Shown here one piece after another: positions 51,389 to 63,334 of a stretch of 64,000 bases of DNA. Under the pieces are notes generated by a model. That model saw only the letters and a program-made list of their open reading frames with translations, had not been told where the DNA came from and searched no databases. Position numbers and translations under genes: made by a program. Numbering within the stretch: position 1 is the first letter of the stretch; every line of letters begins with the position of its first letter. Origin of the DNA: Acidimicrobiia bacterium (GTDB taxonomy: Bacteria > Acidobacteriota > Vicinamibacteria > Vicinamibacterales > UBA2999). The DNA lies in the NCBI GenBank assembly GCA_016871255.1, contig VFZH01000004.1, positions 567-64,566 on the forward strand, in the 5' to 3' direction.

Positions 51389-52054
51389 ATGGGCGAACGG
51401 ACGCGACCAGGTCGGGTGAAGGCCACGGAGGCTGCCAAGCATTTCGGGGCACTGGTCGACCGTGTCCGGCAGGAGCGGACCACGTACGTCGTCGAGCGGG
51501 GCGGCCAGGCGGTGGCCGAGCTCCGGCCGGTGAGCCAGAGGCAGTGCTCAGTAGCCGAACTCATCCGGCTGCTGGACGAGGTGGGACCGTTCGATCGAGG
51601 GTTCGCGGATGCCCAACGCAGACCCTGCGCCTCCGAGCCCCCCGGACCGCACACCTCCGAACCCAACTCAGACGCTGCGCCTCCGCAGACGCGCGCCCCG
51701 GTCAGACCAGGGTGCGCGTCTTCACGTCCCAAGGTGCGGGGCCTCGCATGGAGCGGTGCCAGGCAACTTGGGTTCACAACCGCGAACGGTTACGATGGGA
51801 GCCGAGAACATGGCTGCCCGGTGGGGATGGTGCGCGTGCCTGGTGGTGGCAGCGGTGTCTCTGGCGGGCTGCGACCGGATCCCGCTGCTCGCCCCCAGCC
51901 AGTCGACGATCTCGCTCAGCGCTCCTCTTCGCATCCTTCCCCTCAACGGCTCCACGGAGCTGACGGCCGTCGTCATCGAACAAGGCGGCACGCCGGTCCA
52001 CAACGGCACCGCCGTGCGGTTCACGACGACGCTCGGCAGGGTGGAGCCGGCTGA
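51389..52054 (+). CDS. Phd/YefM-like antitoxin domain protein; only the first ~75 codons look genuine and the 3' end is doubtful
   Basis: The N-terminus VKATEAAKHFGALVDRVRQERTTYVVERGGQAVAELRPV fits the Phd/YefM fold pattern and has a GAGGA Shine-Dalgarno. The remaining ~145 codons are low-complexity and overlap the next gene out of frame. Confidence 0.5.
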   Translation: MGERTRPGRVKATEAAKHFGALVDRVRQERTTYVVERGGQAVAELRPVSQRQCSVAELIRLLDEVGPFDRGFADAQRRPCASEPPGPHTSEPNSDAAPPQTRAPVRPGCASSRPKVRGLAWSGARQLGFTTANGYDGSREHGCPVGMVRVPGGGSGVSGGLRPDPAARPQPVDDLAQRSSSHPSPQRLHGADGRRHRTRRHAGPQRHRRAVHDDARQGGAG

Positions 52055-53381
52055 GGTCCAGACGCGGAACGGCGTGGCAACCACGACGTACTACGCCGGC
52101 GAGTCCTCGGGAATTGCGGAAGTCCGGGCGATCTCCGGAGCCGCGGGCGGCGGCACAGACACCGCCTCGCCCTCCAACGTCATCTCGATCACGATCGGCG
52201 CAGCGGCGGTTGAAACGGTCACCGTCCGCGCCAATCCGGCGAGCGTCAGCGCTGCCGGCGGCACGGTGGACATCATCGCCGGCGCCCTCGGGGCGAACGG
52301 CCGTTCGCTGCCCGGGGTGCCGGTGACCTTCAACGCGGACAACGGCACGCTGAGCGCCTCGTCGGCCCTGACCGACGCGAACGGCGAAGCGACCGTGCGC
52401 CTCACGACCAACGTGACCACGATCGTGACCGCGGCCGCCGGTGGCAAGACGCCGGCCACCGTCACGGTCTCCGTGCGATCCGCCCCCGCCGTGACACTGA
52501 CCTGCCGTACGGGTGATGGGACTGCGGGCAACAGCTGCACGGCCGTCACGGGCACCAGCATCATCTTTGCCGCGGCCCGCGCAGAGGGCTCCGCGCCCCT
52601 CACCGGCGCCACGCTGGAGTTCGGTGACGGCACCGCGACGGCGCTCGGCACGCTCTCGAGCGGGTCGACCGTCGCGCACACCTACGACACTCCCCGGAAC
52701 TACACGGCCACGCTCCGCGCCACCGACGTCAACGGCACGACGACGACCGCGACGGTCGCCGTGAACATCACCGGCGGCCAGCTCGCCGTCGAACTGAGCT
52801 GCGCGGGTGCGACTACGGCCATCGGGGTCTGCAGCCAGATCGCCGGACAGCCGGTATCCTTCACCGCACAACGCGCCGCGACCAACACCGCGACGCTCTC
52901 CGGGGCATCGCTGGCGTTCGGCGACGGGAGGTCGGCCACGCTCGGGACCCTGTCCGGCCCGGCGTCAACGCTCCACACGTACGGCGCGGCCGGCACGTAC
53001 GTGGCCACGCTCACGGCGACGTCGGCCACGGGCGCCACGACCACCGCCAACGTCGTCGTGACCGTCACGGCGCCAACTCCGCTCACCGTCACCCTGGCGG
53101 CAGCGGTGGGGACGGCGACGACCACGGGACAGCCGGTGAGCTTCACCGCAACCGCGACGGCTCCCGCGTCGTCTCCCGTGGAGTCGTTCACCTGGGACTT
53201 CGGCGATGGTGTCACGACCACGACAGCTGGCAACACCACGACGCACGTATACGGGCCGGGCAGCACTCCTCCGCCCAACGCCGTCACGTCGACCACCTAC
53301 ACCGCAACGGTGACCGTGCGGACCACCGACGGTCGGACGGCTACCACCAGAACGGAGTTCCAGGTCCGCCTCGCGCCGTAG
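51810..53381 (+). CDS. Surface lipoprotein with bacterial Ig-like (Big_1-type) and PKD-like repeats
   Basis: Canonical lipobox SLAGC. Two invasin-like Ig repeats (GIAEVRA..., NGEATVRLT...). Three PKD-like repeats with F/WxFGDG and H.Y...G.Y..TLT patterns (LEFGDGTA...HTYDTPRNYTATLRATD; LAFGDGRS...HTYGAAGTYVATLTAT; WDFGDGVT...HVYG). Confidence 0.8.
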   Translation: MAARWGWCACLVVAAVSLAGCDRIPLLAPSQSTISLSAPLRILPLNGSTELTAVVIEQGGTPVHNGTAVRFTTTLGRVEPAEVQTRNGVATTTYYAGESSGIAEVRAISGAAGGGTDTASPSNVISITIGAAAVETVTVRANPASVSAAGGTVDIIAGALGANGRSLPGVPVTFNADNGTLSASSALTDANGEATVRLTTNVTTIVTAAAGGKTPATVTVSVRSAPAVTLTCRTGDGTAGNSCTAVTGTSIIFAAARAEGSAPLTGATLEFGDGTATALGTLSSGSTVAHTYDTPRNYTATLRATDVNGTTTTATVAVNITGGQLAVELSCAGATTAIGVCSQIAGQPVSFTAQRAATNTATLSGASLAFGDGRSATLGTLSGPASTLHTYGAAGTYVATLTATSATGATTTANVVVTVTAPTPLTVTLAAAVGTATTTGQPVSFTATATAPASSPVESFTWDFGDGVTTTTAGNTTTHVYGPGSTPPPNAVTSTTYTATVTVRTTDGRTATTRTEFQVRLAP

Positions 53382-53528: not shown

Positions 53529-53960
53529 TCACCAGTCGCGGTAATTCGATCCGTCCAGCGCCGCCCCCTCCGCCCCGCTCTTCACGTCGTACACACCCGG
53601 CACGTCCGCGGGGTTCGTGGGATCGAACTCCGACATCTCGGTCACCCACGTGTCGGCGCTCTGCGTGATCGGATCGGCGGGCACGGCCCGGAGGTAGCTC
53701 TCCGTCACGAGCTCTTCGAGCGACGACGGGTACTGGTTCTTGTCGGCGTGATACTGGTCGATGGCGTCGCGCATCCGGTACAGGTTCTCCTTCAGCACAG
53801 CCTCCTTCGAGCGGGTCACGCTGTTCGAGTACGTCACCAGGCCGACGCTCGCCAAGATCACGATCAGCGACATCACGACCAGCAGCTCGATGAGCGTGAA
53901 ACCGGACCGCGCACCCAGCACGCGTCGCAACCCCGGCCCGGCCCACGCGTTCGGCATCAC
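53529..53960 (-). CDS. GspG-like pseudopilin / type IV pilin-like protein
   Basis: Prepilin motif G|FTLIELLVVMSLIVILA with Glu at +5. The GspG-like body reads KEAVLKENLYRMRDAIDQYHADKNQYP. C-terminus is ...LDGSNYRDW. Confidence 0.85.
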   Translation of the reverse strand: MMPNAWAGPGLRRVLGARSGFTLIELLVVMSLIVILASVGLVTYSNSVTRSKEAVLKENLYRMRDAIDQYHADKNQYPSSLEELVTESYLRAVPADPITQSADTWVTEMSEFDPTNPADVPGVYDVKSGAEGAALDGSNYRDW

Positions 53961-53963
53961 GTC

Positions 53964-54497
53964 CTACCAGTCCCGGTACTTCGTCCCGTCGAGTCCCGTG
54001 CCCTCGCTCTGCGTGTACACGTCGAACACGCTGTTGCCACCCCAGCTCCGGCTGTCCGGGTCGTCGGAGTAGGCGCGGAGCCCCCAGTCCGCCCCGCCGG
54101 TCATGGGATCGATCGGAATCCGCCTCAGGAACTTCAGCGTGCGTCCGGACGCGTCGCCAACGGCGGGAACGCCTTCGACGAGCGTTTCCAGGTCCGGCGG
54201 GTACCCCTCGCTGCCGGTTTCCACCTCGGTGGTCGCGATCCGGCCCTGGTCCACGGCGTCCTTGAACTCGTCGATCGCCGTGCGGATCTCGCGCAGGTTC
54301 CGGCGCAGCTCGGCCTCACGCTGCCGCTGCATCGTGACGCGCGTGAGCGGCAGGACGGCCGACGCGAGGATGAGCAGGATCGCCGAGACAACGACGAGCT
54401 CGATGAACGTGAACCCGCGCTCAGCAGCGCCACCATGCCCGGCCAGGAGCCGGCACCGAACCCGCTGGACGGCACGGCGAATCGGACGCGGGCGCAT
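53964..54497 (-). CDS. GspG-like pseudopilin / type IV pilin-like protein (paralogue)
   Basis: Prepilin motif G|FTFIELVVVSAILLILA, then REAELRRNLREIRTAIDEF. C-terminus is ...LDGTKYRDW, shared with the neighbouring paralogue. Confidence 0.85.
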   Translation of the reverse strand: MRPRPIRRAVQRVRCRLLAGHGGAAERGFTFIELVVVSAILLILASAVLPLTRVTMQRQREAELRRNLREIRTAIDEFKDAVDQGRIATTEVETGSEGYPPDLETLVEGVPAVGDASGRTLKFLRRIPIDPMTGGADWGLRAYSDDPDSRSWGGNSVFDVYTQSEGTGLDGTKYRDW

Positions 54498-54512
54498 CGC
54501 TGGGCGACCCGC

Positions 54513-56939
54513 TCACCGGACGGTCACCACCGCCGGCACGAAGGTCAGCGGCGCCACGGTACCATCCGGCAGCGTCGCCGAACCGGTCATGGTGAAGTTG
54601 CCGAACCCTGGGGCCGCCGCATCGAACAGAATCGCCGACAGCAGTCCGGAGCCGGAGGCCCCCGCGGCATCGCCCGTTCGCACGATCGCGATGTCGATCC
54701 GGCCGACGACCGGATCGACCTGCTGCGTGAACTGGACGTTGGTCCCGCCCTGACGCATGAAGCTTCCCTCCTGGATGCTTCGCACGCGCAGGACCGACGG
54801 GTCGAACGTGAGCGTGATCGACACCATCGACAGCCGAGACGCGTTCGACACGGAGATCGGCACGGTATACGGTCCACCGCCGACCTGCAGTTCGTTCGCC
54901 GGAGCCGTCAGCAGGATCTGCGCCGGCGGCACGGGCTGTCGCTGGGCCGAGGGAACCGGCGTGCCCCCTCCGGCCGGCTGCGTCGTACCCGGCACGGTGT
55001 TGCTGCCGGGAGGAATGACCGGTTGTGCCGCCGGAGCGCCGGTCTGGGGCGCGACGGCCGGCGGCGGAGGCAGTGCGTCGGTTGCCGGCGGCGTACCTGG
55101 AGGCTGCGGCGTTGCCGTCCCCTGCGGGTCGGGCAAACCGCCCGGCCCGATCGTCGGGGGCGGGCCACCCAGCGCCAGGTTCTGCTGCGAACCGATGTAG
55201 ATGGGCGCCACGTCGTCCTGCGTCAGCTCGTGCGTCCGCACGAGCCGTGGCGTCAGCAGCATCACGATGTCGGTCTGCTCGACCCTATCAGAGGTATTCC
55301 CGAACAAGTTACGAATAATCGGCAATCGCAAGAGCCCTGGGAAACCCTTGGCGGACGTGCGTTCTCTCTCTTGGAGCAACCCTGCTAGCAAGTTCGACTC
55401 GCCGTTGCGTAGTCGGAGCCTGGTGTTCACCTTCCGGGTGAAGAACGAGGGCAGGGTCTGGGGATTGTCGGTACTTCCGATGACAACACCAGGCCCTAGG
55501 GAGCTACTCTCCACCGATAGCTCAAGGATGATCTCGTCCTCGAAAGTGACGCGCGGGGTCATCTCCACCACCACGCCGACGGTCCGGTACGTGAACGATG
55601 TCAGCGGATTCACGTTCACGCCGCCCTGGGCGAACGGCGTGAACACGGTCGAGGGAACCGGGACCTCGTCGCCCAGGTTGAGCGTGATCAGCTGGCCCTC
55701 CTGACCGCGCAGCTGGGGCTTGGCTATCAGCTTCGTCTGGTCATCGTTCTCCAGAAAACTGACAATGGCTGACGGAATCGCCAAGTAGAAATCGCCTGTG
55801 TTGACACCGCGTGTAATCGTGTTCAGGTTGAACGTATCAGTCGCATCTTCCGCTGCCGGGTTGCGTTCCGGTGAGAACACACCTCGTACCGCGTAGCTAC
55901 TGAGGTCCAGGCCGAACTGCTTGGCACGGCTCCGGTTCACCTCGAGGATCTGCACGTCCACGACGACCTCGGCGCGCGGGTTGTCGTTCTGCTCGATCAG
56001 CTTCTCGACGATCTCGACCACGTTGGCCGAGGCGCCGACGGTGATCGTGTTGGCCGCCTTGTTCGGCACGATCCGCGGCGGCACGGCCATGCTCGGCAGC
56101 CGGATCACCTGCACCAGCAGCTGCGCCAGCTCGGTGGCGTCGGCGTGGGAGATGAAGAACGTCTGGATGACCTGCTCCTCGTACTGCGCCCGCTTCTGGT
56201 TGGTGTCCGGAACGACGAGAATCGTGCGGTCGTTGACGACCTTGTAGAAGTACTGGTTGACGGTCAGGATCTGGTTCAGCGCGTCGTTCAGCGTGACGTC
56301 GTCCAGCTCGACCGTGTAGCTGCGATCCTGGAAGTCGCGATCGTAGGTGACGTTGATGTTGGTGGCGTCACCGATGAAGTTGAGGATGTCGCGGACGCTG
56401 GTGTTGACGAAACGGATCGTCGGCAGCGTCGACTCGAGGTTCAACAGCGGCTGGGGCCCCTCCTGCCGCGCCCGCTCCCGGAGCTGGTCGATCGTCGGCT
56501 TCGGGAGCTCGGCTTCGAGCTGCTCCCGGATCCGGCGCTCCAGCTCGCGCACCTTGTCGGCGATCGATCGGCTGACCGGATCGAACTCGTTCGCCCGCCG
56601 GTACTCGCGCAGCGCCTCGTCGAGCTGGCCGCGCGCTTCGAACACGCGCGCCTGATCGAGGTGACGGCCCGCGGCGTTGATCATCGCGCGTTCGAGCGCG
56701 ATGCGGTACTCCGCCCGGTTCGGTTCCTTCTGGACGGCCTCCCGGAAGTGCAGGACGGCCGCATCCCAGTCGCCGTTCCGTCCGGCCTGGTCGCCGCGTC
56801 CGTACGCGCGGCTCGCGCCGCATCCCGCCGCGAGCACGGCGGCAATCAGGAGAGACGCCAGCGCGGTCGCACGTCGCCCCTGCTGGCCGGGCCTGTCGCG
56901 TCTGGACACTCGGCTCGTCATGCTGATGGGTGTGGTCAC
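54513..56939 (-). CDS. Secretin (GspD/PilQ family) with a lipobox plus TPR-like N-terminus and a C-terminal cohesin-like domain
   Basis: 808 aa. N-terminus has VLAAGCG followed by TPR-like helices. N0/N1-like repeats (VRDILNFIGDATNINV..., TELAQLLVQV...). Secretin core (TRLRLRNGESNLLAGLL...GFPGLLRLPIIRNLFG). A Pro-rich linker. The C-terminal ~130 aa (PYTVPISVSNASRLSMVSITLTFDPSVLRV...GLLSAILFDAAA) resemble cohesin modules. Confidence 0.9.
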   Translation of the reverse strand: MTTPISMTSRVSRRDRPGQQGRRATALASLLIAAVLAAGCGASRAYGRGDQAGRNGDWDAAVLHFREAVQKEPNRAEYRIALERAMINAAGRHLDQARVFEARGQLDEALREYRRANEFDPVSRSIADKVRELERRIREQLEAELPKPTIDQLRERARQEGPQPLLNLESTLPTIRFVNTSVRDILNFIGDATNINVTYDRDFQDRSYTVELDDVTLNDALNQILTVNQYFYKVVNDRTILVVPDTNQKRAQYEEQVIQTFFISHADATELAQLLVQVIRLPSMAVPPRIVPNKAANTITVGASANVVEIVEKLIEQNDNPRAEVVVDVQILEVNRSRAKQFGLDLSSYAVRGVFSPERNPAAEDATDTFNLNTITRGVNTGDFYLAIPSAIVSFLENDDQTKLIAKPQLRGQEGQLITLNLGDEVPVPSTVFTPFAQGGVNVNPLTSFTYRTVGVVVEMTPRVTFEDEIILELSVESSSLGPGVVIGSTDNPQTLPSFFTRKVNTRLRLRNGESNLLAGLLQERERTSAKGFPGLLRLPIIRNLFGNTSDRVEQTDIVMLLTPRLVRTHELTQDDVAPIYIGSQQNLALGGPPPTIGPGGLPDPQGTATPQPPGTPPATDALPPPPAVAPQTGAPAAQPVIPPGSNTVPGTTQPAGGGTPVPSAQRQPVPPAQILLTAPANELQVGGGPYTVPISVSNASRLSMVSITLTFDPSVLRVRSIQEGSFMRQGGTNVQFTQQVDPVVGRIDIAIVRTGDAAGASGSGLLSAILFDAAAPGFGNFTMTGSATLPDGTVAPLTFVPAVVTVR

Positions 56940-57487
56940 TGGCCCGTCAGGCGCAGCACCTGGCGTCCATGCCCGTCGGCATGGGTGAGCTCGGCCGTGT
57001 CAGCGCCAACGCGTACCAGGCGATACCGTCCGTCGATGATATCGCCTTCCTTCCCATGGAACACGTTCCCGGACCCGTCCGCCAGCACCGCCAGCCGTCC
57101 ACCGGTTCCCGCGCCCTCGACCAGCCCGATGAACTTCAGCGGGATCGGGGGCACGGACGGAGGCGGAGGTAGCCCGCTGCTCACGGGGGGCGGGGGCCGG
57201 GGTGCCGGTGGAGGCTCCAGGTCCGGCACGTCCTTTCGGGGCGTCGCCCGCGCTTCGAAACGGAACGGATTCCGCGCGGCGGGCTCGAGCGCCTCGCGCG
57301 CCTCGCCGAGACGCCCGAGACGCAACCCGTCCTGCAGCGCGGATGGCACGGTGTTCACCGGAGCCCCGGTCGATGCAACCGCCGCCGTGGGCGCCACCGC
57401 CGTCGCGGCATCATCACCGCGGAAATACCGGACACCCGCCACACCCAGCAGGACGACCAGCACGCCAAGCAGCACGCGCTGCCTCAT
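56936..57487 (-). CDS. PilP/GspC-like small inner-membrane-anchored protein
   Basis: 183 aa with an N-terminal TM, a Pro-rich spacer and a C-terminal beta domain (LKFIGLVEGAGTGGRLAVLADGSGNVFHGKEGDIIDGRYRLVRVG). It sits between pilO-like and the secretin, and both ends overlap their neighbours by 4 nt. Confidence 0.6.
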   Translation of the reverse strand: MRQRVLLGVLVVLLGVAGVRYFRGDDAATAVAPTAAVASTGAPVNTVPSALQDGLRLGRLGEAREALEPAARNPFRFEARATPRKDVPDLEPPPAPRPPPPVSSGLPPPPSVPPIPLKFIGLVEGAGTGGRLAVLADGSGNVFHGKEGDIIDGRYRLVRVGADTAELTHADGHGRQVLRLTGQ

Positions 57488-58062
57488 GACGCCGGGGTGT
57501 GGAAGTAGGTGGACAGCTGCAGGCTGAGCACCAGCTCTCCCGTCGCCTCCGACCCCTGCGTCAGTCTGACGTCGTCCACGACGACGAACTCCGGTGCCGT
57601 TTCGAGGCTGTAGATGAAGGCCCGCATCGCTCCGTAGGTGCCGCGGAGCACCAGTTCGCTGCGCACCCGCGTCAACGCGCTGCCGCGCACGCTCTGCGGG
57701 TCGAACGTGTACCGCTCGTAGTCCAGCCCCGCCTCGTCGGCCAGTTGCGCCAGGCGCGGGTGCGTCAGGCGCCGGGCTGCGGGCAGATCGACGGGCAGCA
57801 CCTTGCCGTAGAACGTCTCGAGCTCCGATGCCGCGCGCTCCTTGCCGTTGAGCGTCCCCTGCGCGGCCTCGAAATCGCGTCTGGCCACCGCGAGGGTCTG
57901 CTCCGCGGCCCGGTCGCGCTGCTCGATGTTCGCCACCCGCTGCTGCAGGGGATAGACGCCGAACGCGAACACGCCGGCGTTGAGCGCGACGACGACCGCC
58001 AGTGGCACGAGGACGCGGCGCCACTCCGACAGGATGCGCGCCGCCAGGCCGGCCCGGCTCAT
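57484..58062 (-). CDS. PilO/GspM-like bitopic protein
   Basis: 192 aa with a single TM (VLVPLAVVVALNAGVFAFGV), a coiled coil and a ferredoxin-like C-domain. I chose the ATG at 58062, which overlaps the upstream stop. Confidence 0.7.
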   Translation of the reverse strand: MSRAGLAARILSEWRRVLVPLAVVVALNAGVFAFGVYPLQQRVANIEQRDRAAEQTLAVARRDFEAAQGTLNGKERAASELETFYGKVLPVDLPAARRLTHPRLAQLADEAGLDYERYTFDPQSVRGSALTRVRSELVLRGTYGAMRAFIYSLETAPEFVVVDDVRLTQGSEATGELVLSLQLSTYFHTPAS

Positions 58063-58622
58063 GGCTGACGCTCCGGCACGGCGTAGACCCCCTCGACGAT
58101 CGCCTCGATCAGCCCGTCGGCCTGCACGCTCTCCTCGACCGGCTTCACGTCCCGGAAGGTCCCCGTCTGTTCGAGCGCCTCGATGAACTCGTCCACGTCG
58201 TCCACGCCGCGCGCCTGCGCCACGACCGCCACGGCGAACGTCCCCTGATTGAGGCGCGGCTGCACCGCCTTGATGCGCACGTCTGGCGGCAGCGTCGCCT
58301 CGAACTGCGCGAAGAGATCCGTCCACGAAAAGGCGCGCTGGTCGATGATGGCGTTCGCCTCACGCGCCGCCGCGGCGACCGACTCCAGCTCCCGCGGGTC
58401 GATCCGCGTGCGTACGGCGGCCGCCTCGACCCTCAGGCGGCTGGCTTCCGCCTCGGCTTCCTCGGCGTGCGTGCCGAGCCGCGACTGCGCCGCCGACAGG
58501 CGGACGAGTTCCTCGACGTTGAAGAGCGTGAACGCGACGGCCAGCACGGCGGCCACACCGATGCCCAGCCGCACGGCGCTCTCGTTGTAGAACGGCCGGG
58601 TCGCCAGGTTCGTGTGCAGCAT
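58059..58622 (-). CDS. PilN-like protein
   Basis: 187 aa. The N-terminus NLATRPFYNE is the conserved PilN/fimbrial-assembly motif that binds PilM. It has a single TM. Confidence 0.75.
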   Translation of the reverse strand: MLHTNLATRPFYNESAVRLGIGVAAVLAVAFTLFNVEELVRLSAAQSRLGTHAEEAEAEASRLRVEAAAVRTRIDPRELESVAAAAREANAIIDQRAFSWTDLFAQFEATLPPDVRIKAVQPRLNQGTFAVAVVAQARGVDDVDEFIEALEQTGTFRDVKPVEESVQADGLIEAIVEGVYAVPERQP

Positions 58623-59575
58623 CAGGCCGCCTGCTCCGCGCGCAGTCCGCGCAGCGAGACGCCGACGAGGGGCGCGAGGACATCCATCAGGGCCGGCGTC
58701 ACCGAGATGCGGTCGGCAACGGCGGCGAATCGCGTCGGGTCGATCGGCTCGACCGCAAGGCCCAGCCGATCCTCGACGCTCCGCCGCGCGTCGTCGAGCG
58801 TCCCGCCGCCGCGGCCCGACCCGCCCACCAGGACGCGGACGAAGCCGCTGCCGGCCAGCCGATCCTGGTAGTACATCGCCGTCCGGTGGACGAGGTCCGC
58901 GAGCCCGCTGTCGTCGTCTCCCCCCTGCGTCCGGAGGTAGATCACATCGGTCCCCCGGAGGATGACGATCGTGGTCGCGTCGCCGCGCACGTGCACCAGC
59001 AGCCAGTCGCCATCGGGCACCGGGGCCGACAGGAACAGCTCCAGCAGGCAGACCGTGGACACGTCCACGAGGCCGGGGTACGCGGACGCCCGCTCGCAGA
59101 CCGCTTCGTACGCGCGCACCGTCTCCCGGCGGGCCACGCTGACGAGGTATTCACGTCCGCCGTCCACGCGACGGCCGGCCGCATAGCTGACCAGGGCGTC
59201 ATCGACGGGGAACGGCACCGACTTGCGCGCCTGCCACCGGATCAGCCGGTCGAGATCGTCGCGTCGTCCCGGCTCGTGTTCGAAAGGCACGATCGAGACG
59301 CGCGCGGCGGCATCGGGAATCACCAGCGCCACGCGCTTCGGCCGGGCCGGCAGCCGGCCGAAGACCTCGTCGATCGCGTTCGCCACGGCGTCCGGATCGG
59401 CGATGTTCTCCCCCGCCAGCACCGGTGTGACCACGCCGGGTGGCAGGGGCACGGTCGCATGGGCCGCGACCACCGGGGCGGCATGGCGCTCGCCGATGAC
59501 GGCGGCCGAGACCCGATCCGCCGCGATCTCGACGGCGGCGTCCGGCGGGCGGCTCCGCAGCCACGAGGGGATCAC
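58622..59575 (-). CDS. PilM-like actin-fold assembly protein
   Basis: 317 aa with PilM-like sequence (RVALVIPDAAARVSIVPFEH...LIRWQARKSVPFPVDDALVSY). It is first in a pilMNOP-like gene order. Confidence 0.8.
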   Translation of the reverse strand: MIPSWLRSRPPDAAVEIAADRVSAAVIGERHAAPVVAAHATVPLPPGVVTPVLAGENIADPDAVANAIDEVFGRLPARPKRVALVIPDAAARVSIVPFEHEPGRRDDLDRLIRWQARKSVPFPVDDALVSYAAGRRVDGGREYLVSVARRETVRAYEAVCERASAYPGLVDVSTVCLLELFLSAPVPDGDWLLVHVRGDATTIVILRGTDVIYLRTQGGDDDSGLADLVHRTAMYYQDRLAGSGFVRVLVGGSGRGGGTLDDARRSVEDRLGLAVEPIDPTRFAAVADRISVTPALMDVLAPLVGVSLRGLRAEQAA

Positions 59576-59588
59576 CGTCGCCTCCCCG

Positions 59589-61220
59589 TCATTCGACGAA
59601 CGTCACCTTGTTGATCTCGCGGAGCGTGGTCATGCCCCGGAGGACCTTCTCGACCGCGCTCTCGCGGAGGAACCGCATCCCTTCCTCGTGCGCCGCCTTC
59701 TTCACTTCGGAGTTCGGCCGGCGCTGCAGGATCATCTCACGGATGCGATCCGAGAGGTCGAGCAGTTCGCAGATCGCCGTGCGCCCCTTGAACCCCGTTC
59801 CGCCGCAGTCGATGCACCCGGCGCCCTCGTAGAACGCGTGCCGCTCGAGCAGGGCGGGATCCATCCCCGATTCCTGGAGCTGTTCCCGCGTGATGGCGGC
59901 CGGGCGCTTGCACTGGTCGCAGATGAGCCGGACGAGCCGCTGCGCCAGCACGCAGTTGAGCGCCGACACGAACTGGTACGGCTCCACGCCCATGTTCAGG
60001 AAGCGGCCCAGCACGTCCACGACGTTGTTCGCGTGCACGGTCGTGAAGACCAGGTGCCCCGTCAACGCCGACTGGATGGCGATCTGCGCCGTTTCCGGGT
60101 CCCGGATCTCGCCCACCATGATCTTGTCCGGGTCGTGCCGCAGGATGGACCTGAGGCCGCGCGCGAACGTCAGGCCCTTCTTCTCGTTGATCGGGATCTG
60201 GGTGACCCCCCCGAGCTGGTACTCGACCGGATCCTCGATCGTGATGACCTTGTCCTCGATCGACTTGATCTCCGAGAGCGCCGCGTACAGCGTCGTGGTC
60301 TTGCCGCTGCCCGTCGGGCCGGTGACCAGCACCATGCCGTACGGCTCCCGGATGTACTTCCGGAACCGGCGCAGCTCGTCCTCGGGAAACCCCAGGATGT
60401 CCAGCCTCAGTTCAGTGAACTGCTCGCTGATCGACTCCTTGTCGAGGATCCGGATCACGGCGTCTTCGCCGTGCACGCTGGGCATGATCGACACCCGGAA
60501 GTCGATGGTCTTCCCGGGCATGCGCACCTTGAAGCGGCCGTCCTGCGGCACGCGCTTCTCGGCGATGTCCAGCTCCGCCATCACCTTGATGCGCGAGATG
60601 ATCGGGCTGTGGAACTGCTTGGCCATCGGCCGCATCGCGGGCTGCAGCACGCCGTCGATCCGGTACTTCACGTGGACGGCGTCGTCGCCCGTCTCCACGT
60701 GGATGTCGCTCGCCCGCCGCTGGATGCCGGCGAAGATCAGCGAGTCCACCAGACGGATCACCGGGCTGGTGTCGCTCGTGAGCCGCTCGACCGTCAGACT
60801 CTCGTCGCCACCCTCGTCGTCCTTCAGGACCTGGAGCTGGAAGCCCTCCGTGGCGTCCTCGAGCACGCGCTGGGAGCTCTCGCTCTTCTTCAGGATCGAC
60901 TGGATCGCCGAGGGCGCGCCCACCGTGACCCGGAGCGGCGTGGCGAGCACCGTCCCGAGCTCGTCGATGAGCGGCAGATCGGTCGGGTCCGACACGACGA
61001 TCACCAGCGTCCGCCCCTCGCGGCGGTGCGGCACGAACCCGTAGCGGAGCATCAGATCGGCGGGAATGCTCCGGAACAGCTCCTGGTCGATCCGGAACGC
61101 CTGCATGTCCACGAAGTCGAGGCGGTACCGTTCGGCCAGGGCACGCGCCCGTGCCACCTCGGCCGCATGGTCCTCCACGACCGGTGGCAGATTCACGGCG
61201 TCTTCGACGGGACCGGCCAT
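59589..61220 (-). CDS. GspE/PilB family type II/IV secretion ATPase
   Basis: 543 aa with a T2SSE_N-type N-domain, Walker A GPTGSGKTTT, Asp and His boxes, Walker B, and the tetracysteine CDQC...CIDC. Confidence 0.95.
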   Translation of the reverse strand: MAGPVEDAVNLPPVVEDHAAEVARARALAERYRLDFVDMQAFRIDQELFRSIPADLMLRYGFVPHRREGRTLVIVVSDPTDLPLIDELGTVLATPLRVTVGAPSAIQSILKKSESSQRVLEDATEGFQLQVLKDDEGGDESLTVERLTSDTSPVIRLVDSLIFAGIQRRASDIHVETGDDAVHVKYRIDGVLQPAMRPMAKQFHSPIISRIKVMAELDIAEKRVPQDGRFKVRMPGKTIDFRVSIMPSVHGEDAVIRILDKESISEQFTELRLDILGFPEDELRRFRKYIREPYGMVLVTGPTGSGKTTTLYAALSEIKSIEDKVITIEDPVEYQLGGVTQIPINEKKGLTFARGLRSILRHDPDKIMVGEIRDPETAQIAIQSALTGHLVFTTVHANNVVDVLGRFLNMGVEPYQFVSALNCVLAQRLVRLICDQCKRPAAITREQLQESGMDPALLERHAFYEGAGCIDCGGTGFKGRTAICELLDLSDRIREMILQRRPNSEVKKAAHEEGMRFLRESAVEKVLRGMTTLREINKVTFVE

Positions 61221-61232
61221 GGCTCTCCCCTG

Positions 61233-62444
61233 TTATCGGACGACGGTGCTCAACTCGAACAGGGGGAGGTACAGGGCCAGCACGACCGCGGCGATGACCA
61301 CCCCCATCAGGACCAGCAGGATCGGCTCGATGAGGGTGATGTAGCGGGCCACCTCCGCCTCCACCTCCTCGTCGTAGAAATCGGCCAGGCTGTTGAGCAT
61401 CTCCTGCAGCGCCCCGGTGGACTCCCCCACGTCAACCATCTTGACGGCCACGTCCGGGAACGAGCCCCGGGCCCGGAGGGCGGCGCCGAACGCCTCCCCT
61501 TCCCGCACCCGGCGCCCCACCGTTTCGACTTCTCCGGCGAGAAAACGGTTGGTCATGGACCGGGCGGCGGTTTCCAGCGCGTTCACGAGCGGGATCCCGC
61601 CCCCGAGCAGCGTCGCCAGCGTCCGCGCGAGCTGCGACGTCGCGAGCTTCCGGAACGTGGACCCCACCCAGGGCAGCGACAGCACACCCCGGTCGAATCG
61701 CTCCCGCTGTCCGGCCTGGCGCAGCCACCAGGCCACACCCATGGCCCCAGCCGCCAGCGCCGCCGCCACCAGCAGGATGTTGCCGCGCACGAAGTCGGAC
61801 AGGGCCACGATGACGCGCGTGGACGCCGGCAGTTCCTGCCCGAACCCGGCGTAGAACTCCGAGAAGGCGGGCACGACGCGCAGCACGATGATGCCGACCA
61901 GGGCCACCATCATGGCCACCAGGATGGCCGGGTAGATCAGCGCGGAGATCGTGCGGCGGCGGACGGCGCTGATGACCTTTTCGTACGCCACGTACCGCCG
62001 CACCACCGAATCGAGTTCGCCCGCGCGCTCGCCGGCGGTCAGCGTCGCCGCGTAGATCAGCGGGAAGAGGTCGCCGTGCGCCGCGAACGACTCGGACAGC
62101 GCGGCGCCGGCCTTGACGCGGTCGTGCACGTCGTCCAGCACCGACTTGAACGTCGCGGACTCGATGCGCTCCCGCAGGATGTCCAGCGACTGGACTAGCG
62201 GCATGCCGGCCTTCAGCAGGGTCGCCAGCTCCTGGTTGAAGGCCAGGAACTCGCGCTGCGGGATCCTCCGCCGCCGGGCCGGCAGGGACAGGCTGGGCAG
62301 CCCCAGTCCTCCCTTCCGCTGGAGCGAGAGGATCAGCAGCCCTTTCTCTTCCAGGTCCCGCCGCAGGCGCGCCTCACTCTCGGCGACGTAGGTGCCCTCG
62401 ACGATCTCGCCGCCGGGGGTGCCCAGCCTGCAGCGGAACTCCAC
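61233..62444 (-). CDS. GspF/PilC family platform protein
   Basis: 403 aa with two T2SSF repeats (FNQELATLLKAGMPLVQSL and LARTLATLLGGGIPLVNAL) and three TM segments. Confidence 0.93.
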   Translation of the reverse strand: MEFRCRLGTPGGEIVEGTYVAESEARLRRDLEEKGLLILSLQRKGGLGLPSLSLPARRRRIPQREFLAFNQELATLLKAGMPLVQSLDILRERIESATFKSVLDDVHDRVKAGAALSESFAAHGDLFPLIYAATLTAGERAGELDSVVRRYVAYEKVISAVRRRTISALIYPAILVAMMVALVGIIVLRVVPAFSEFYAGFGQELPASTRVIVALSDFVRGNILLVAAALAAGAMGVAWWLRQAGQRERFDRGVLSLPWVGSTFRKLATSQLARTLATLLGGGIPLVNALETAARSMTNRFLAGEVETVGRRVREGEAFGAALRARGSFPDVAVKMVDVGESTGALQEMLNSLADFYDEEVEAEVARYITLIEPILLVLMGVVIAAVVLALYLPLFELSTVVR

Positions 62445-62446
62445 GC

Positions 62447-63334
62447 TCAGCGCACCTCGAGAAACGCGTGAAAGACGCGCACGCCCAGCTCCCGCGTGTC
62501 GCCACCCGCCATCGACGGCACCCTGGCCGGCACGAACGTGCGGTCCACGGTCATCTGCAGCTCCACGACGTCCCCGTCGCCCAGGAGGCCGGCCGACAGC
62601 GGAATCCGCCGGAGATCGGCCTGCCCCGGGGCGAGGGTGAAGGCGTCGACCTCCTGGTCACCGAGCGTCAGCCGCACCTGCTGCGGCTCCGGGATCGCAT
62701 CCGAGCGGTCGAGCTGCAGGAACAGTCGCGCGTCGCGCCGCGGATTGCGGAACGCGAGCGTGGCCGCGCCCGTGGACCACTGCCACTGCCGCATGCTGCC
62801 CTCGGCCTGCTCCACGTTGTGCCACCCGTCCTTGAAGACGACGAACACCGCGTCCGCCTGCAGGCGCATGTCGAACGTGGCCACGCGGTAGCCGCGCTGC
62901 CCGATCGCCTCCCCTTCGAGCCGCATCCGCTGGCCGGTCGACTTCGACATCAGGCCGATCTCGACGTCGGTCTCCCCCACGTACGGGATCTTCGGCACGA
63001 AGACCGTACGGGTGTACTCGATCGTCTGGCCGGGCGCCCAGAGCGACATCGGCGTCGGCGGCTGGTGGTCGTCGGTCCACATCATCTCGCCGGCGGTGTC
63101 CAGAAAGTGCACGAACACCCACCCGTCCTCAGGAAACGGCGGGGCGTCGGCGGCCACCTCGAAGCGGAACTGCATCTCGAGGGGACCGCCGATGACCGCC
63201 TCGCGGCTGCCGAGCGTGAGGGTGGGCGTGGCCGCTATCACGCCCGTGTCCGCGGCCGGCCCGCAGGCCGCGCCCAGGACGGAGAGCAGCAGGGCGCACA
63301 GAAGACCCGGTGAACGATTCGTCGATGCTGGCAT
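62447..63334 (-). CDS. Hypothetical exported protein (probable lipoprotein); first gene of the type-IV-filament operon
   Basis: Signal peptide with LSVLGAAC. No family I can name. The stop lies 2 nt from the gspF-like start. I chose the ATG at 63334 (GGGGA Shine-Dalgarno) over the TTG at 63346. Confidence 0.6.
   Translation of the reverse strand: MPASTNRSPGLLCALLLSVLGAACGPAADTGVIAATPTLTLGSREAVIGGPLEMQFRFEVAADAPPFPEDGWVFVHFLDTAGEMMWTDDHQPPTPMSLWAPGQTIEYTRTVFVPKIPYVGETDVEIGLMSKSTGQRMRLEGEAIGQRGYRVATFDMRLQADAVFVVFKDGWHNVEQAEGSMRQWQWSTGAATLAFRNPRRDARLFLQLDRSDAIPEPQQVRLTLGDQEVDAFTLAPGQADLRRIPLSAGLLGDGDVVELQMTVDRTFVPARVPSMAGGDTRELGVRVFHAFLEVR

What the first reader, a model, noticed from the sequence alone, without database searches (positions are those of the whole stretch)
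53529..63334. Compact hybrid T2SS/T4P-like (type IV filament) operon lacking minor pilins, a prepilin peptidase and a retraction ATPase
Ten tightly coupled minus-strand genes, several with 4-nt stop/start overlaps. Order: unknown lipoprotein, GspF/PilC, GspE/PilB, PilM, PilN, PilO, a PilP/GspC-like protein, secretin, and two GspG-like pseudopilins. This mixes the T4aP alignment module (PilMNOP) with T2SS-type GspG pseudopilins. It lacks GspH-K or minor pilins, PilD/GspO and PilT. It is not obvious whether it builds a secretion pseudopilus, a pilus or something else.
Basis: partly seen in the sequence, partly recalled or inferred. Interest (0 to 1): 0.6.

Follow-up and report, generated by a model that had tools for sequence, protein, structure and literature searches.

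The report
Acidobacterial type II-like secretion machine operon
This soil acidobacterium carries an intact ten-gene operon for a pilus-like secretion machine from an old, unstudied lineage that is present in about 80% of sampled genomes of its phylum and also known as Ralstonia's "unorthodox T2SS"; it is not a one-off hybrid, and the parts that look missing are encoded elsewhere in the genome.

Summary
Ten intact, tightly coupled minus-strand genes (53529-63334) encode a lipoprotein, GspF, GspE, PilM, PilN, a GspM/PilO-like protein, a PilP/GspC-HR-like protein (shown by fold), a secretin and two GspG-type pseudopilins.

The "hybrid lacking parts" reading is only partly right.
- The genome encodes a prepilin peptidase and PilT beside a separate ordinary type IVa pilus cluster.
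- A third pseudopilin without Glu5 (G3) sits on another contig. In most relatives it lies next to G2.
- The architecture F-E-M-N-O-P-secretin-G1-G2(-G3) recurs across Acidobacteriota. G1 was found in 240 of 301 sampled genomes.
- The same architecture occurs in Burkholderiales as the uncharacterised "unorthodox T2SS" of Ralstonia solanacearum. The secretin build is the same: lipobox-TPR front, cohesin tail.

ATPase and secretin trees place this lineage in its own strongly supported clade, outside canonical GspE/GspD and PilB/PilQ. Its deep position is unresolved.

I judge it most likely to be a T2SS-like machine that builds a short periplasmic pseudopilus to export or surface-display proteins. 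The neighbouring Ig-like lipoproteins are candidate cargo, but function is inferred, not shown. It is a new variant of a known kind, of moderate interest.

The parts
62447..63334 (-). Lipoprotein (lipobox LGAAC), 295 aa, two tandem beta-sandwich domains. Order-specific accessory protein or cargo.
   Evidence: No Pfam, NCBIfam or PDB sequence hit. AlphaFold model has pLDDT 88; Foldseek gives only generic two-domain Ig/FnIII-like matches (RbmA, arrestin) with TM about 0.27. Present upstream of F in 20 of 21 Vicinamibacteria-like loci and absent in other classes.
61233..62444 (-). Inner-membrane platform protein (GspF/PilC family), 403 aa.
   Evidence: T2SSF 1.9e-53 with two repeats. GspF model 344.9 bits versus PilC 278.7, both below cut-off.
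59589..61220 (-). Assembly ATPase (GspE/PilB family), 543 aa, with an MshEN-type N-domain, Walker A GPTGSGKT and a CxxC...CxxC motif.
   Evidence: T2SSE 2e-128 and MshEN 6.6e-19. GspE 534.7 versus PilB 532.5 bits, both below cut-off. 65-87% identical across Acidobacteriota. Forms a 100%-supported clade with the Burkholderiales 'unorthodox' ATPases.
58622..59575 (-). PilM-like cytoplasmic actin-fold protein, 317 aa (the counterpart of the GspL cytoplasmic domain).
   Evidence: PilM_2 2e-14; TIGR01175 69.3 bits, below the 133 cut-off.
58059..58622 (-). PilN-like bitopic protein, 187 aa. N-terminus reads HTNLATRPF, resembling the PilN INLLP motif.
   Evidence: PilN 0.0024, weak. The Ralstonia counterpart h2 also hits PilN. 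The motif was read directly from the sequence.
57484..58062 (-). GspM/PilO-like bitopic protein, 192 aa.
   Evidence: T2SSM_b 5e-7, PilO 7e-4, GspM_XpsM 1.4e-9.
56936..57487 (-). Bitopic protein, 183 aa: TM helix, Pro-rich linker and a C-terminal PilP/GspC-HR-fold beta domain. Presumed link to the secretin N0 domain.
   Evidence: No sequence hit. In the model, residues 117-180 have pLDDT above 90. Foldseek top hits are PilP (3jc8_Pa, 2ivw, 2y4y), GspC-HR (3oss_C, TMt 0.78, rmsd 2.5) and PulC-HR (6hcg_e).
54513..56939 (-). Secretin, 808 aa: lipobox (LAAGC), TPR module, STN/N0, Secretin_N, secretin core, roughly 100-aa Pro-rich tether, C-terminal cohesin.
   Evidence: Pfam Secretin 5e-32, Cohesin 2.3e-6, TPR, STN. 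Thousands of same-length relatives with the same domains. The same build occurs in Ralstonia, with Cohesin 9e-23. It is the only cohesin in the genome, and there is no dockerin. The clade is separate from GspD and PilQ.
53964..54497 (-). Pseudopilin G1, 177 aa: 28-aa Arg-rich leader, G|FTFIE with Glu5, GspG-type globular part, C-terminal ...LDGTKYRDW.
   Evidence: N_methyl. hhalign to E. coli GspG gives probability 97.7 over 99 columns, but only the helix aligns with GspH. 46-49% identical to the first post-secretin pseudopilin of Ralstonia and Burkholderia. Found in 240 of 301 phylum genomes.
53529..53957 (-). Pseudopilin G2, 142 aa: G|FTLIE with Glu5, GspG-type globular part, C-terminal ...LDGSNYRDW. 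Candidate major subunit.
   Evidence: N_methyl and T2SSG. hhalign to E. coli GspG gives probability 98.6 over 104 columns. The profile hits the globular part of solved GspG structures. 45-49% identical to the second Ralstonia/Burkholderia pseudopilin.
51810..53381 (+). Big/PKD-repeat lipoprotein, convergent with the operon. Candidate cargo or partner; association only.
   Evidence: Homologues follow G2 in 14 of the 17 Vicinamibacteria-like loci that keep the secretin in the operon, usually between G2 and G3, and in 0 of the 4 loci that lack it.

Best explanation
The operon encodes the core of a type IV filament machine from a distinct, ancient lineage. That lineage is found in about 80% of sampled Acidobacteriota and also occurs in Burkholderiales, where it is called the 'unorthodox T2SS' of Ralstonia.

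Shown here:
- All ten genes are intact and tightly spaced, several with overlapping stop and start codons.
- The parts form a full trans-envelope set: hexameric-type ATPase E and platform F; an alignment complex of M (cytoplasmic), N, O and P; and P's PilP/GspC-HR-type domain, which in known systems docks on the secretin N0 domain.
- The secretin D carries a lipobox and a TPR module at its front and a cohesin on a Pro-rich tether at its end.
- G1 and G2 are two GspG-type pseudopilins.
- The remaining parts are supplied in trans: a prepilin peptidase on contig C25 (a second on C122) and a third, Glu5-less pseudopilin G3 on contig C22.

Inferred:
- The peptidase cleaves G1-G3.
- G3, which lacks Glu5, caps or primes the filament.
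- G2, perhaps with G1, polymerises on F, driven by E, into a short periplasmic pseudopilus.
- Like a T2SS piston, the pseudopilus drives folded periplasmic proteins or lipoproteins through the secretin.
- The lipobox-TPR module lets the secretin reach the outer membrane without a separate pilotin.
- Candidate cargo are the Ig-like lipoproteins kept beside the genes: Big/PKD at 51810-53381 and the tandem beta-sandwich lipoprotein at 62447-63334.
- The role of the cohesin is unknown.
For: Parts and coupling.

Fold of P.

G1 and G2 are GspG-type through the globular domain.

No retraction ATPase in any of about 80 related loci. The genome's only PilT sits in a separate pilB-pilT-pilC-pilA-pilD cluster, whose proteins score T4aP above T2SS, while the window's F, D and O score T2SS above T4P.

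Only two GspE/PilB-type ATPases exist in the genome, so this is its only T2SS-like candidate.

G3:
- Glu5-less.
- Adjacent to G2 in most relatives.
- Located at C22 in this genome.
- Equivalent to Ralstonia p3.

Conservation:
- E is 65-87% identical across classes.
- G1 is in 240 of 301 genomes, single copy, 58-72% identical within the order. PilA is 41-51% identical and present in 1-8 copies. That pattern is expected for a hidden pseudopilus rather than an exposed fibre.

Same architecture, same TPR-cohesin secretin and orthologous G1/G2 in Ralstonia, Burkholderia, Janthinobacterium and Eleftheria. There the cluster is flanked by typical exported proteins: M4 metalloprotease, RHS proteins and large hypotheticals.

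Own clade in the ATPase tree (100/100) and in the secretin tree.

Big/PKD lipoprotein co-occurs with the in-operon secretin, 14/17 versus 0/4.
Against:
- No GspH-K tip complex and no true GspG in this genome. The Burkholderiales versions do carry a true GspG, so in Acidobacteriota the major subunit is uncertain.
- The position of the ATPase clade relative to T2SS or T4aP is unresolved: sister to GspE at 41% in one tree and to PilB at 31% in the other.
- PilT exists in the genome and could act in trans.
- The 28-aa leader of G1 is longer than usual for T2SS.
- The cohesin has no dockerin partner in the genome.
- The Big/PKD association could reflect general synteny and a single lineage-specific loss.
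- This copy lacks the lytic transglycosylase gene that 19 of 21 close relatives keep between the lipoprotein and F.
Confidence: 0.6

Rival explanations
1. It builds a true extracellular pilus of G1/G2, used for adhesion, motility, DNA uptake or electron transfer. Retraction, if any, is borrowed from the PilT of the T4aP cluster.
For: - PilM, PilN, PilO and PilP are separate proteins, as in T4aP.
- The best solved-structure matches of E are T4aP PilB: 442 bits versus 368 for EpsE, partly because of the shared N-domain.
- With more references the ATPase clade falls weakly with PilB.
- The long leader peptide is pilin-like.
- PilT is present in the genome.
- In Terriglobia the E orthologue lies downstream of a PilA-like pilin gene.
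Against: - The pilins are GspG-type and small, single copy and better conserved than PilA.
- No PilT, PilY1 or T4aP minor pilin set is linked to the cluster in any locus.
- The genome already has a full T4aP with its own PilMNOPQ.
- F, D and O score T2SS above T4P.
Confidence: 0.22
2. It is an ordinary T2SS whose missing genes (GspC, H-K, L, M, O) are encoded elsewhere in a canonical arrangement.
For: The peptidase and a third pseudopilin are indeed encoded elsewhere. F, D and O lean towards the T2SS models.
Against: - No component reaches a T2SS equivalog cut-off.
- No further GspE-type ATPase, no true GspG and no GspH-K relatives are found in a 99.8% complete genome.
- The ATPase and secretin fall outside the GspE and GspD clades.
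- The same non-canonical set recurs in hundreds of genomes.
Confidence: 0.03
3. In this genome it is a decaying or silent remnant, because it has lost the lytic transglycosylase and G3 from the operon.
For: The SLT gene is absent here but present in 19 of 21 close relatives. G3 has moved to another contig.
Against: All ten genes are intact, tightly spaced and overlapping, with conserved catalytic motifs. G3 is intact at C22. Other SLT paralogues exist at C115 and C54.
Confidence: 0.05

Closest known systems
[quoted passage not shown]
   Same: - Same order: F-E-four small genes (M, N, O, P)-secretin-pseudopilins.
- Same secretin build: TPR, STN, Secretin_N, Secretin, Cohesin.
- G1 and G2 are 45-49% identical to the first and second post-secretin pseudopilins. 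A Glu5-less third pseudopilin is also shared.
- The ATPases form one 100%-supported clade and the secretins one clade.
   Different: - The Burkholderiales versions add a true GspG (T2SSG, 133 bits) next to F or after the pseudopilins.
- They are flanked by RHS or protease genes.
- They coexist with an orthodox T2SS.
- The acidobacterial version has no true GspG, has order-specific lipoproteins beside it, and is the genome's only T2SS-like system.
Canonical type II secretion system (Gsp/Pul/Xcp/Eps)
   Same: - GspE/F-type motor and platform.
- GspM-like protein.
- GspC-HR-fold protein.
- Secretin with an N0/STN domain.
- GspG-type pseudopilins.
- No dedicated retraction ATPase.
- Peptidase shared with T4P, as in Pseudomonas (established knowledge).
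   Different: - GspL is split into PilM and PilN.
- The GspC-like protein has no PDZ domain.
- There is no GspH-I-J-K set, only one Glu5-less pseudopilin.
- The secretin carries a lipobox-TPR front and a cohesin tail instead of an S-domain with a pilotin.
- All equivalog cut-offs are missed, and the system lies outside the GspE and GspD clades.
Type IVa pilus machine (PilBCMNOPQ, PilT, PilA plus minor pilins)
   Same: Separate PilM, PilN, PilO and PilP-fold proteins. ATPase with an MshEN-type N-domain. A TPR lipoprotein pilotin (PilF/PilW/Tgl) exists there as a separate protein (established knowledge).
   Different: - No PilT, PilA-type pilin, PilY1 or minor pilin operon is linked to the cluster.
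- P is a bitopic protein, not a lipoprotein.
- The genome has a separate, better-matching T4aP set on contigs C25 and C8.
Non-canonical T2SS-like systems of Chlamydiae and Bacteroidetes (Cytophaga), as discussed by Denise et al. 2019 (PMC6668835)
   Same: They are secretion-type type IV filament systems that the standard models class as 'generic', because components are missing or branch apart from T2SS.
   Different: Different component sets. The chlamydial system lacks GspLM homologues and minor pilins. The Cytophaga system clusters with T4aP. Neither is reported with a TPR-cohesin secretin. I did not compare their sequences directly.

Membership tests
Canonical T2SS | GspE, GspF and GspD orthologues (NCBIfam equivalogs TIGR02533, TIGR02120, TIGR02517) | tested here: not met
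   Scores of 534.7, 344.9 and 143 bits against cut-offs of 630.25, 424 and 351.35. Homologous, but below the equivalog level.
Canonical T2SS | Major pseudopilin GspG | tested here: inconclusive
   TIGR01710 gives 27-41 bits against a cut-off of 88.85. However, hhalign to E. coli GspG gives probability 97.7-98.6 through the globular domain. There is no true GspG in the genome, unlike Ralstonia.
Canonical T2SS | Minor pseudopilins GspH, I, J and K | tested here: not met
   None in the operon. A genome-wide prepilin motif scan and tblastn find only T4aP pilins plus G3.
Canonical T2SS | Fused GspL, GspM, and GspC with HR and PDZ/coiled-coil domains | tested here: not met
   GspL is replaced by separate PilM and PilN. 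A GspM-like O protein is present. P has the HR fold only.
Canonical T2SS | ATPase and secretin fall inside the GspE and GspD clades | tested here: not met
   They form a separate 100%-supported clade. A sister relation to GspE has only 41% support and is lost when more references are added.
Type IVa pilus | PilB, PilC and PilQ orthologues | tested here: not met
   532.5 against 675.65; 278.7 against 700; 100.7 against 284.35. The genome's other cluster scores higher on the PilB and PilC models.
Type IVa pilus | Retraction ATPase PilT belonging to the system | tested here: not met
   None in the operon or in about 80 related loci. The only PilT (452 bits against a 319 cut-off) lies between pilB and pilC on contig C25.
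Type IVa pilus | PilM-PilN-PilO-PilP alignment complex | tested here: met
   PilM_2 at 53.7 bits is above the Pfam cut-off. PilN and PilO matches are weak. The PilP fold is seen by Foldseek. These are also the homologues of GspL, GspM and GspC.
Type IVa pilus | PilA-type major pilin with T4aP minor pilins and PilY1 | tested here: not met
   G1 and G2 are GspG-type. PilA and the minor pilins lie on contig C25.
Acidobacteriota/Burkholderiales 'unorthodox T2SS' lineage (not a curated family) | Gene order F-E-M-N-O-P-secretin-G1-G2(-G3) | tested here: met
   In this genome G3 lies in trans at contig C22.
Acidobacteriota/Burkholderiales 'unorthodox T2SS' lineage (not a curated family) | Secretin with an N-terminal TPR module and a C-terminal cohesin | tested here: met
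Acidobacteriota/Burkholderiales 'unorthodox T2SS' lineage (not a curated family) | Orthologous G1 and G2 pseudopilins, and shared ATPase and secretin clades | tested here: met
   45-49% identity to the Ralstonia and Burkholderia p1 and p2. Clade support is 100%.

The most novel reading that the evidence does not exclude
The Acidobacteriota-plus-Burkholderiales lineage is a separate class of type IV filament machine, neither T2SS nor T4aP. It would work with a minimal three-pseudopilin filament: two GspG-type subunits and one Glu5-less, glycine-rich cap. It would have a self-piloting lipoprotein secretin whose ring of tethered cohesins acts as a receptor for cargo or for the filament tip. It would be dedicated to exporting or surface-displaying Ig-like lipoproteins and other large exoproteins in one of the most abundant soil phyla.
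Probability: 0.2. Interest if true: 0.75.

Novelty: new variant of a known kind. Interest (0 to 1): 0.5.

Why it matters
Acidobacteriota are among the most abundant soil bacteria and are thought to live largely on secreted hydrolases and surface proteins, yet their protein export routes are almost unstudied. This machine is found in about 80% of sampled genomes and is highly conserved (the ATPase is 65-87% identical across classes). In this genome it is the only T2SS-like candidate. Working out its function would fill a real gap in acidobacterial cell biology. It would also give a function to the long-noted but uncharacterised 'unorthodox T2SS' of Ralstonia and Burkholderia. The lineage bears on how T2SS and T4aP diverged, because it has a split GspL and a reduced pseudopilin set. 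It also offers a natural case of a cohesin fused to a secretin.

Tried and rejected
- **Sequence searches for P.** Pfam, NCBIfam and a profile against PDB found nothing. Only the fold comparison worked.
- **The lipoprotein.** No PDB sequence hit. The fold search gives only generic tandem beta-sandwich matches, so no function was assigned.
- **Dockerin partner for the cohesin.** None in the genome. The cohesin-dockerin cargo idea remains untested.
- **TPR module of the secretin against PDB.** Only generic TPR hits, with no specific match to PilF, PilW or Tgl. 'Fused pilotin' therefore stays an inference.
- **Deep placement of the ATPase clade.** Two ML trees disagree and support is low (41% and 31%). 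I do not claim it is sister to either T2SS or T4aP.
- **Terminator and promoter scan after G2.** Found nothing.
- **Literature searches.** Searches for an acidobacterial description or a secretin-cohesin fusion found none.
- **'Canonical T2SS with parts elsewhere'.** Considered and rejected; see the rival explanations.
- **TXSScan/MacSyFinder.** Could not be run.


Full report
**Observation**

The window has about 70% G+C. Ten minus-strand ORFs occupy 53529-63334 and all are intact.

| Gene | Coordinates | Product |
|---|---|---|
| lipo | 62447-63334 | lipoprotein |
| F | 61233-62444 | GspF/PilC-family platform |
| E | 59589-61220 | GspE/PilB-family ATPase |
| M | 58622-59575 | PilM-like |
| N | 58059-58622 | PilN-like |
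| O | 57484-58062 | GspM/PilO-like |
| P | 56936-57487 | PilP/GspC-HR-like |
| D | 54513-56939 | secretin |
| G1 | 53964-54497 | pseudopilin |
| G2 | 53529-53957 | pseudopilin |

The gaps between successive genes are 2, 12, 13, -1, -4, -4, -4, 15 and 6 nt.

Pfam and NCBIfam confirm most identities:
- F: T2SSF, 1.9e-53.
- E: T2SSE, 2e-128, with an MshEN N-domain.
- M: PilM_2, 2e-14.
- N: PilN, weak.
- O: T2SSM_b, GspM_XpsM and PilO.
- D: a secretin with TPR, STN, Secretin_N, Secretin and Cohesin domains.
- G1 and G2: prepilin N-methylation motifs on both pseudopilins.

No protein reaches an NCBIfam equivalog cut-off for T2SS, T4aP, MSH or Com.

**The uncertain parts**

P has no sequence-level relative in Pfam, NCBIfam or PDB.
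- An AlphaFold model built on 13 orthologues shows a TM helix, a disordered Pro-rich linker and a confident beta domain at residues 117-180.
- The best structural matches of that domain are PilP of M. xanthus, Neisseria and Pseudomonas, and the HR domain of GspC/PulC (3oss_C, TMt 0.78, rmsd 2.5 Å).
- 'PilP/GspC-like' is therefore supported at the fold level.

The leading lipoprotein models well (pLDDT 88) as two tandem beta-sandwiches. It has only generic matches such as RbmA and arrestin, so its role stays open.

Profiles of G1 and G2 align with E. coli GspG through the globular domain (probability 97.7 and 98.6, about 100 columns). With GspH they align only over the N-terminal helix. The G2 profile also hits the globular part of solved GspG structures. 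Both pseudopilins carry Glu5 and end in ...LDG(T/S)xYRDW.

**What is elsewhere in the genome**

The window is C4:567-64566 of a 3.9-Mb, 99.8% complete assembly.
- Peptidase_A24 genes lie at C25:12479-12805 (inside a 256-aa ORF) and at C122.
- Contig C25 carries pilB, pilT (TIGR01420, 452 bits against a 319 cut-off), pilC, pilA, pilD and minor pilins. Contig C8 carries pilM..pilQ. The organism therefore has an ordinary T4aP as well.
- On that cluster PilB and PilC score T4aP above T2SS, whereas the window's F scores GspF above PilC and E ties.
- Only two GspE/PilB-type ATPases exist, so there is no canonical T2SS.
- A paralogous TPR-secretin without a cohesin stands alone at C8:32887-34746.

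The third pseudopilin family, G3, is the key addition.
- Its features are GF/YAMAALL... without Glu5, a conserved REREAELIFRGEQYARAI block, a Gly/Pro-rich middle and a C-terminal ...Y.EW.F.
- It follows G2 in most relatives and corresponds to the third Ralstonia pseudopilin.
- In this genome it is an intact stand-alone gene at C22:33379-34251.
- It is present in 49 of 61 sampled phylum genomes.

**Distribution**

- The ATPase has relatives of 65-87% identity in more than 590 genome records, nearly all labelled Acidobacteriota. Vicinamibacterales are closest, which places the organism there. Terriglobia, Thermoanaerobaculia, Holophagales and Bryobacterales are also represented.
- G1 has a homologue at E <= 1e-15 in 240 of 301 sampled Acidobacteriota genomes (156 of 187 genera). 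It is usually single copy and 50-72% identical.
- Within the order, PilA is only 41-51% identical and occurs in 1-8 copies per genome.

Among 21 Vicinamibacteria-like loci with enough flank, the usual layout is lipo-SLT-F-E-M-N-O-P-D-G1-G2-[Big/PKD]-G3:

| Component | Loci with it |
|---|---|
| lipo | 20/21 |
| SLT lytic transglycosylase | 19/21 |
| D | 17/21 |
| G3 | 19/21 |
| Big/PKD | 14/21 |

- This window's copy is atypical in lacking the SLT gene and having G3 in trans.
- Four loci lack P and D in the operon. Two of those genomes carry a 52-54% identical secretin elsewhere.
- In other classes the system is commonly split. F-E-M-N-O-P-G3 lies in one place (G3 near E in 26 of 28 loci), and D-G1-G2 is usually not adjacent.

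**Outside the phylum**

The best plasmid and chromid matches to E (about 51% identity) are 'GspE/PulE family' genes on the Ralstonia solanacearum megaplasmid and on Burkholderia, Paraburkholderia, Janthinobacterium, Variovorax and Eleftheria replicons.
- Their clusters read (gspG)-F-E-four small genes-secretin-three pseudopilins.
- The Ralstonia secretin has the same TPR-STN-Secretin_N-Secretin-Cohesin build (Cohesin 9e-23).
- Its first and second post-secretin pseudopilins are 45-49% identical to G1 and G2.
- Its third pseudopilin lacks Glu5.
- This is the 'unorthodox T2SS' noted in Ralstonia genome papers as seven core genes with four hypothetical genes between gspE and gspD. Its function has not been characterised (PMC5080846).
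- These clusters are flanked by RHS proteins, an M4 metalloprotease or very large hypothetical proteins.

**Phylogeny**

An ML tree of the ATPase core used these references:
- PilB of Geobacter and Myxococcus, and PilF of Thermus, copied from PDB alignments.
- E. coli K-12 GspE and HofB.
- Sphingomonas GspE.
- The genome's own PilB and PilT.

It groups the acidobacterial and Burkholderiales ATPases with 100% support on a long stem, outside the GspE clade (96%) and outside PilB. Adding Acinetobacter PilB and GspE and two more Burkholderiales sequences keeps that clade at 100/100, but moves its weakly supported neighbour from GspE (41%) to PilB (31%). The deep position is therefore unresolved.

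A secretin tree gives the same picture. Acidobacterial secretins (including the orphan paralogue) and Burkholderiales secretins sit together, apart from GspD, PilQ/HofQ and a third own secretin on C216.

**Interpretation**

PilM+PilN, PilO and PilP are the established homologues of GspL, GspM and the GspC HR domain. The 'mix' therefore reduces to an unfused GspL in a system whose platform, secretin, GspM-like protein and pilins otherwise lean towards T2SS.

I favour a T2SS-like mode of action, at about 0.6, for these reasons:
- No linked retraction ATPase.
- Small GspG-type pilins that are single copy and better conserved than PilA.
- A Glu5-less third pilin of the kind that caps filaments.
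- Exoprotein-type neighbours in Burkholderiales.

In that mode a short pseudopilus is primed by G3 and built from G2 and/or G1 on F, powered by E. M-N-O-P aligns it under the secretin, and it expels folded periplasmic proteins or lipoproteins.

The Big/PKD lipoprotein is a candidate cargo. It usually lies between G2 and G3 and is present only where the secretin is in the operon (14/17 versus 0/4). The count is not phylogenetically independent. The lipobox-TPR head of the secretin plausibly replaces a separate pilotin, but its TPR is generic. The cohesin is the only one in the genome and there is no dockerin, so its partner is unknown.

The main rival, at about 0.22, is a true surface pilus that may use PilT in trans. 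I cannot exclude it without imaging or mutants.

**Literature and earlier notes**

Searches found no description of the acidobacterial system or of a secretin-cohesin fusion. Denise et al. 2019 describe 'generic' type IV filament systems and atypical T2SS, but the main text does not mention Acidobacteria.

Earlier reports of this scan on other genomes reached the same main conclusions: a phylum-wide lineage, the link to the Ralstonia 'unorthodox T2SS', the Glu5-less glycine-rich pilin and the lipo-secretin with a cohesin. I had reached these points independently before reading them, and I treat the earlier reports as agreement, not as evidence.

**Verdict**

This is a real, intact member of an uncharacterised but widespread variant of the T2SS/T4P kind. 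Interest is moderate. Function remains inferred.

Noticed in passing
outside the window: G000:C8:32887-34746 (L086 6888-8747): Stand-alone paralogue of the secretin, 619 aa, with lipobox and TPR but no cohesin. It is 37% identical to D and closer to the Ralstonia secretin (31%) than D is (25%). Some relatives that lack D in the operon have only this type.
   Followed up: partly
outside the window: G000:C22:33379-34251 (-): Third pseudopilin G3, 290 aa, without Glu5 (GFAMAALL) and with a long Gly/Pro-rich middle. It is stand-alone here but adjacent to G2 or Big/PKD in most relatives.
   Followed up: yes
window 62444-62447 (lipoprotein/F junction): Nineteen of 21 close relatives have an SLT-type lytic transglycosylase gene between the lipoprotein and F, orthologous (42-53%) to one in the Burkholderia ambifaria cluster. 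Here the two genes are 2 nt apart and the SLT gene is gone.
   Followed up: yes
window 54414-54497 (G1 leader): G1 has a 28-residue Arg-rich leader before G|F, with no alternative start codon in between. The Ralstonia counterpart has 20 residues. This is long for a T2SS or T4a prepilin. The G2 leader could be 7-20 residues, depending on the start codon.
   Followed up: partly
window 59589-61220 (E N-terminus): Residue 27 of E aligns with residue 75 of Geobacter PilB, so E lacks roughly the first 50 residues of PilB. As far as I recall, that region holds the c-di-GMP-binding motifs of MshE/PilB. I did not test this.
   Followed up: no
L031, L008, L013 (related loci): Several related long-read MAG loci show the orthologous genes broken into many tblastn pieces. 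These are probable frameshift sequencing errors, not real pseudogenes.
   Followed up: no
L083, L084, L101, L102 (Burkholderiales loci): The betaproteobacterial versions of the cluster sit next to RHS repeat proteins, an IPT/TIG protein, an M4 metalloprotease or a 1340-aa hypothetical protein. These are possible dedicated substrates.
   Followed up: partly
outside the window: G000:C122:1534-1821: Second, short Peptidase_A24 gene (171-aa frame) on a 12-kb contig. I did not examine its context; it could belong to a Tad-type system together with the C216 secretin.
   Followed up: no
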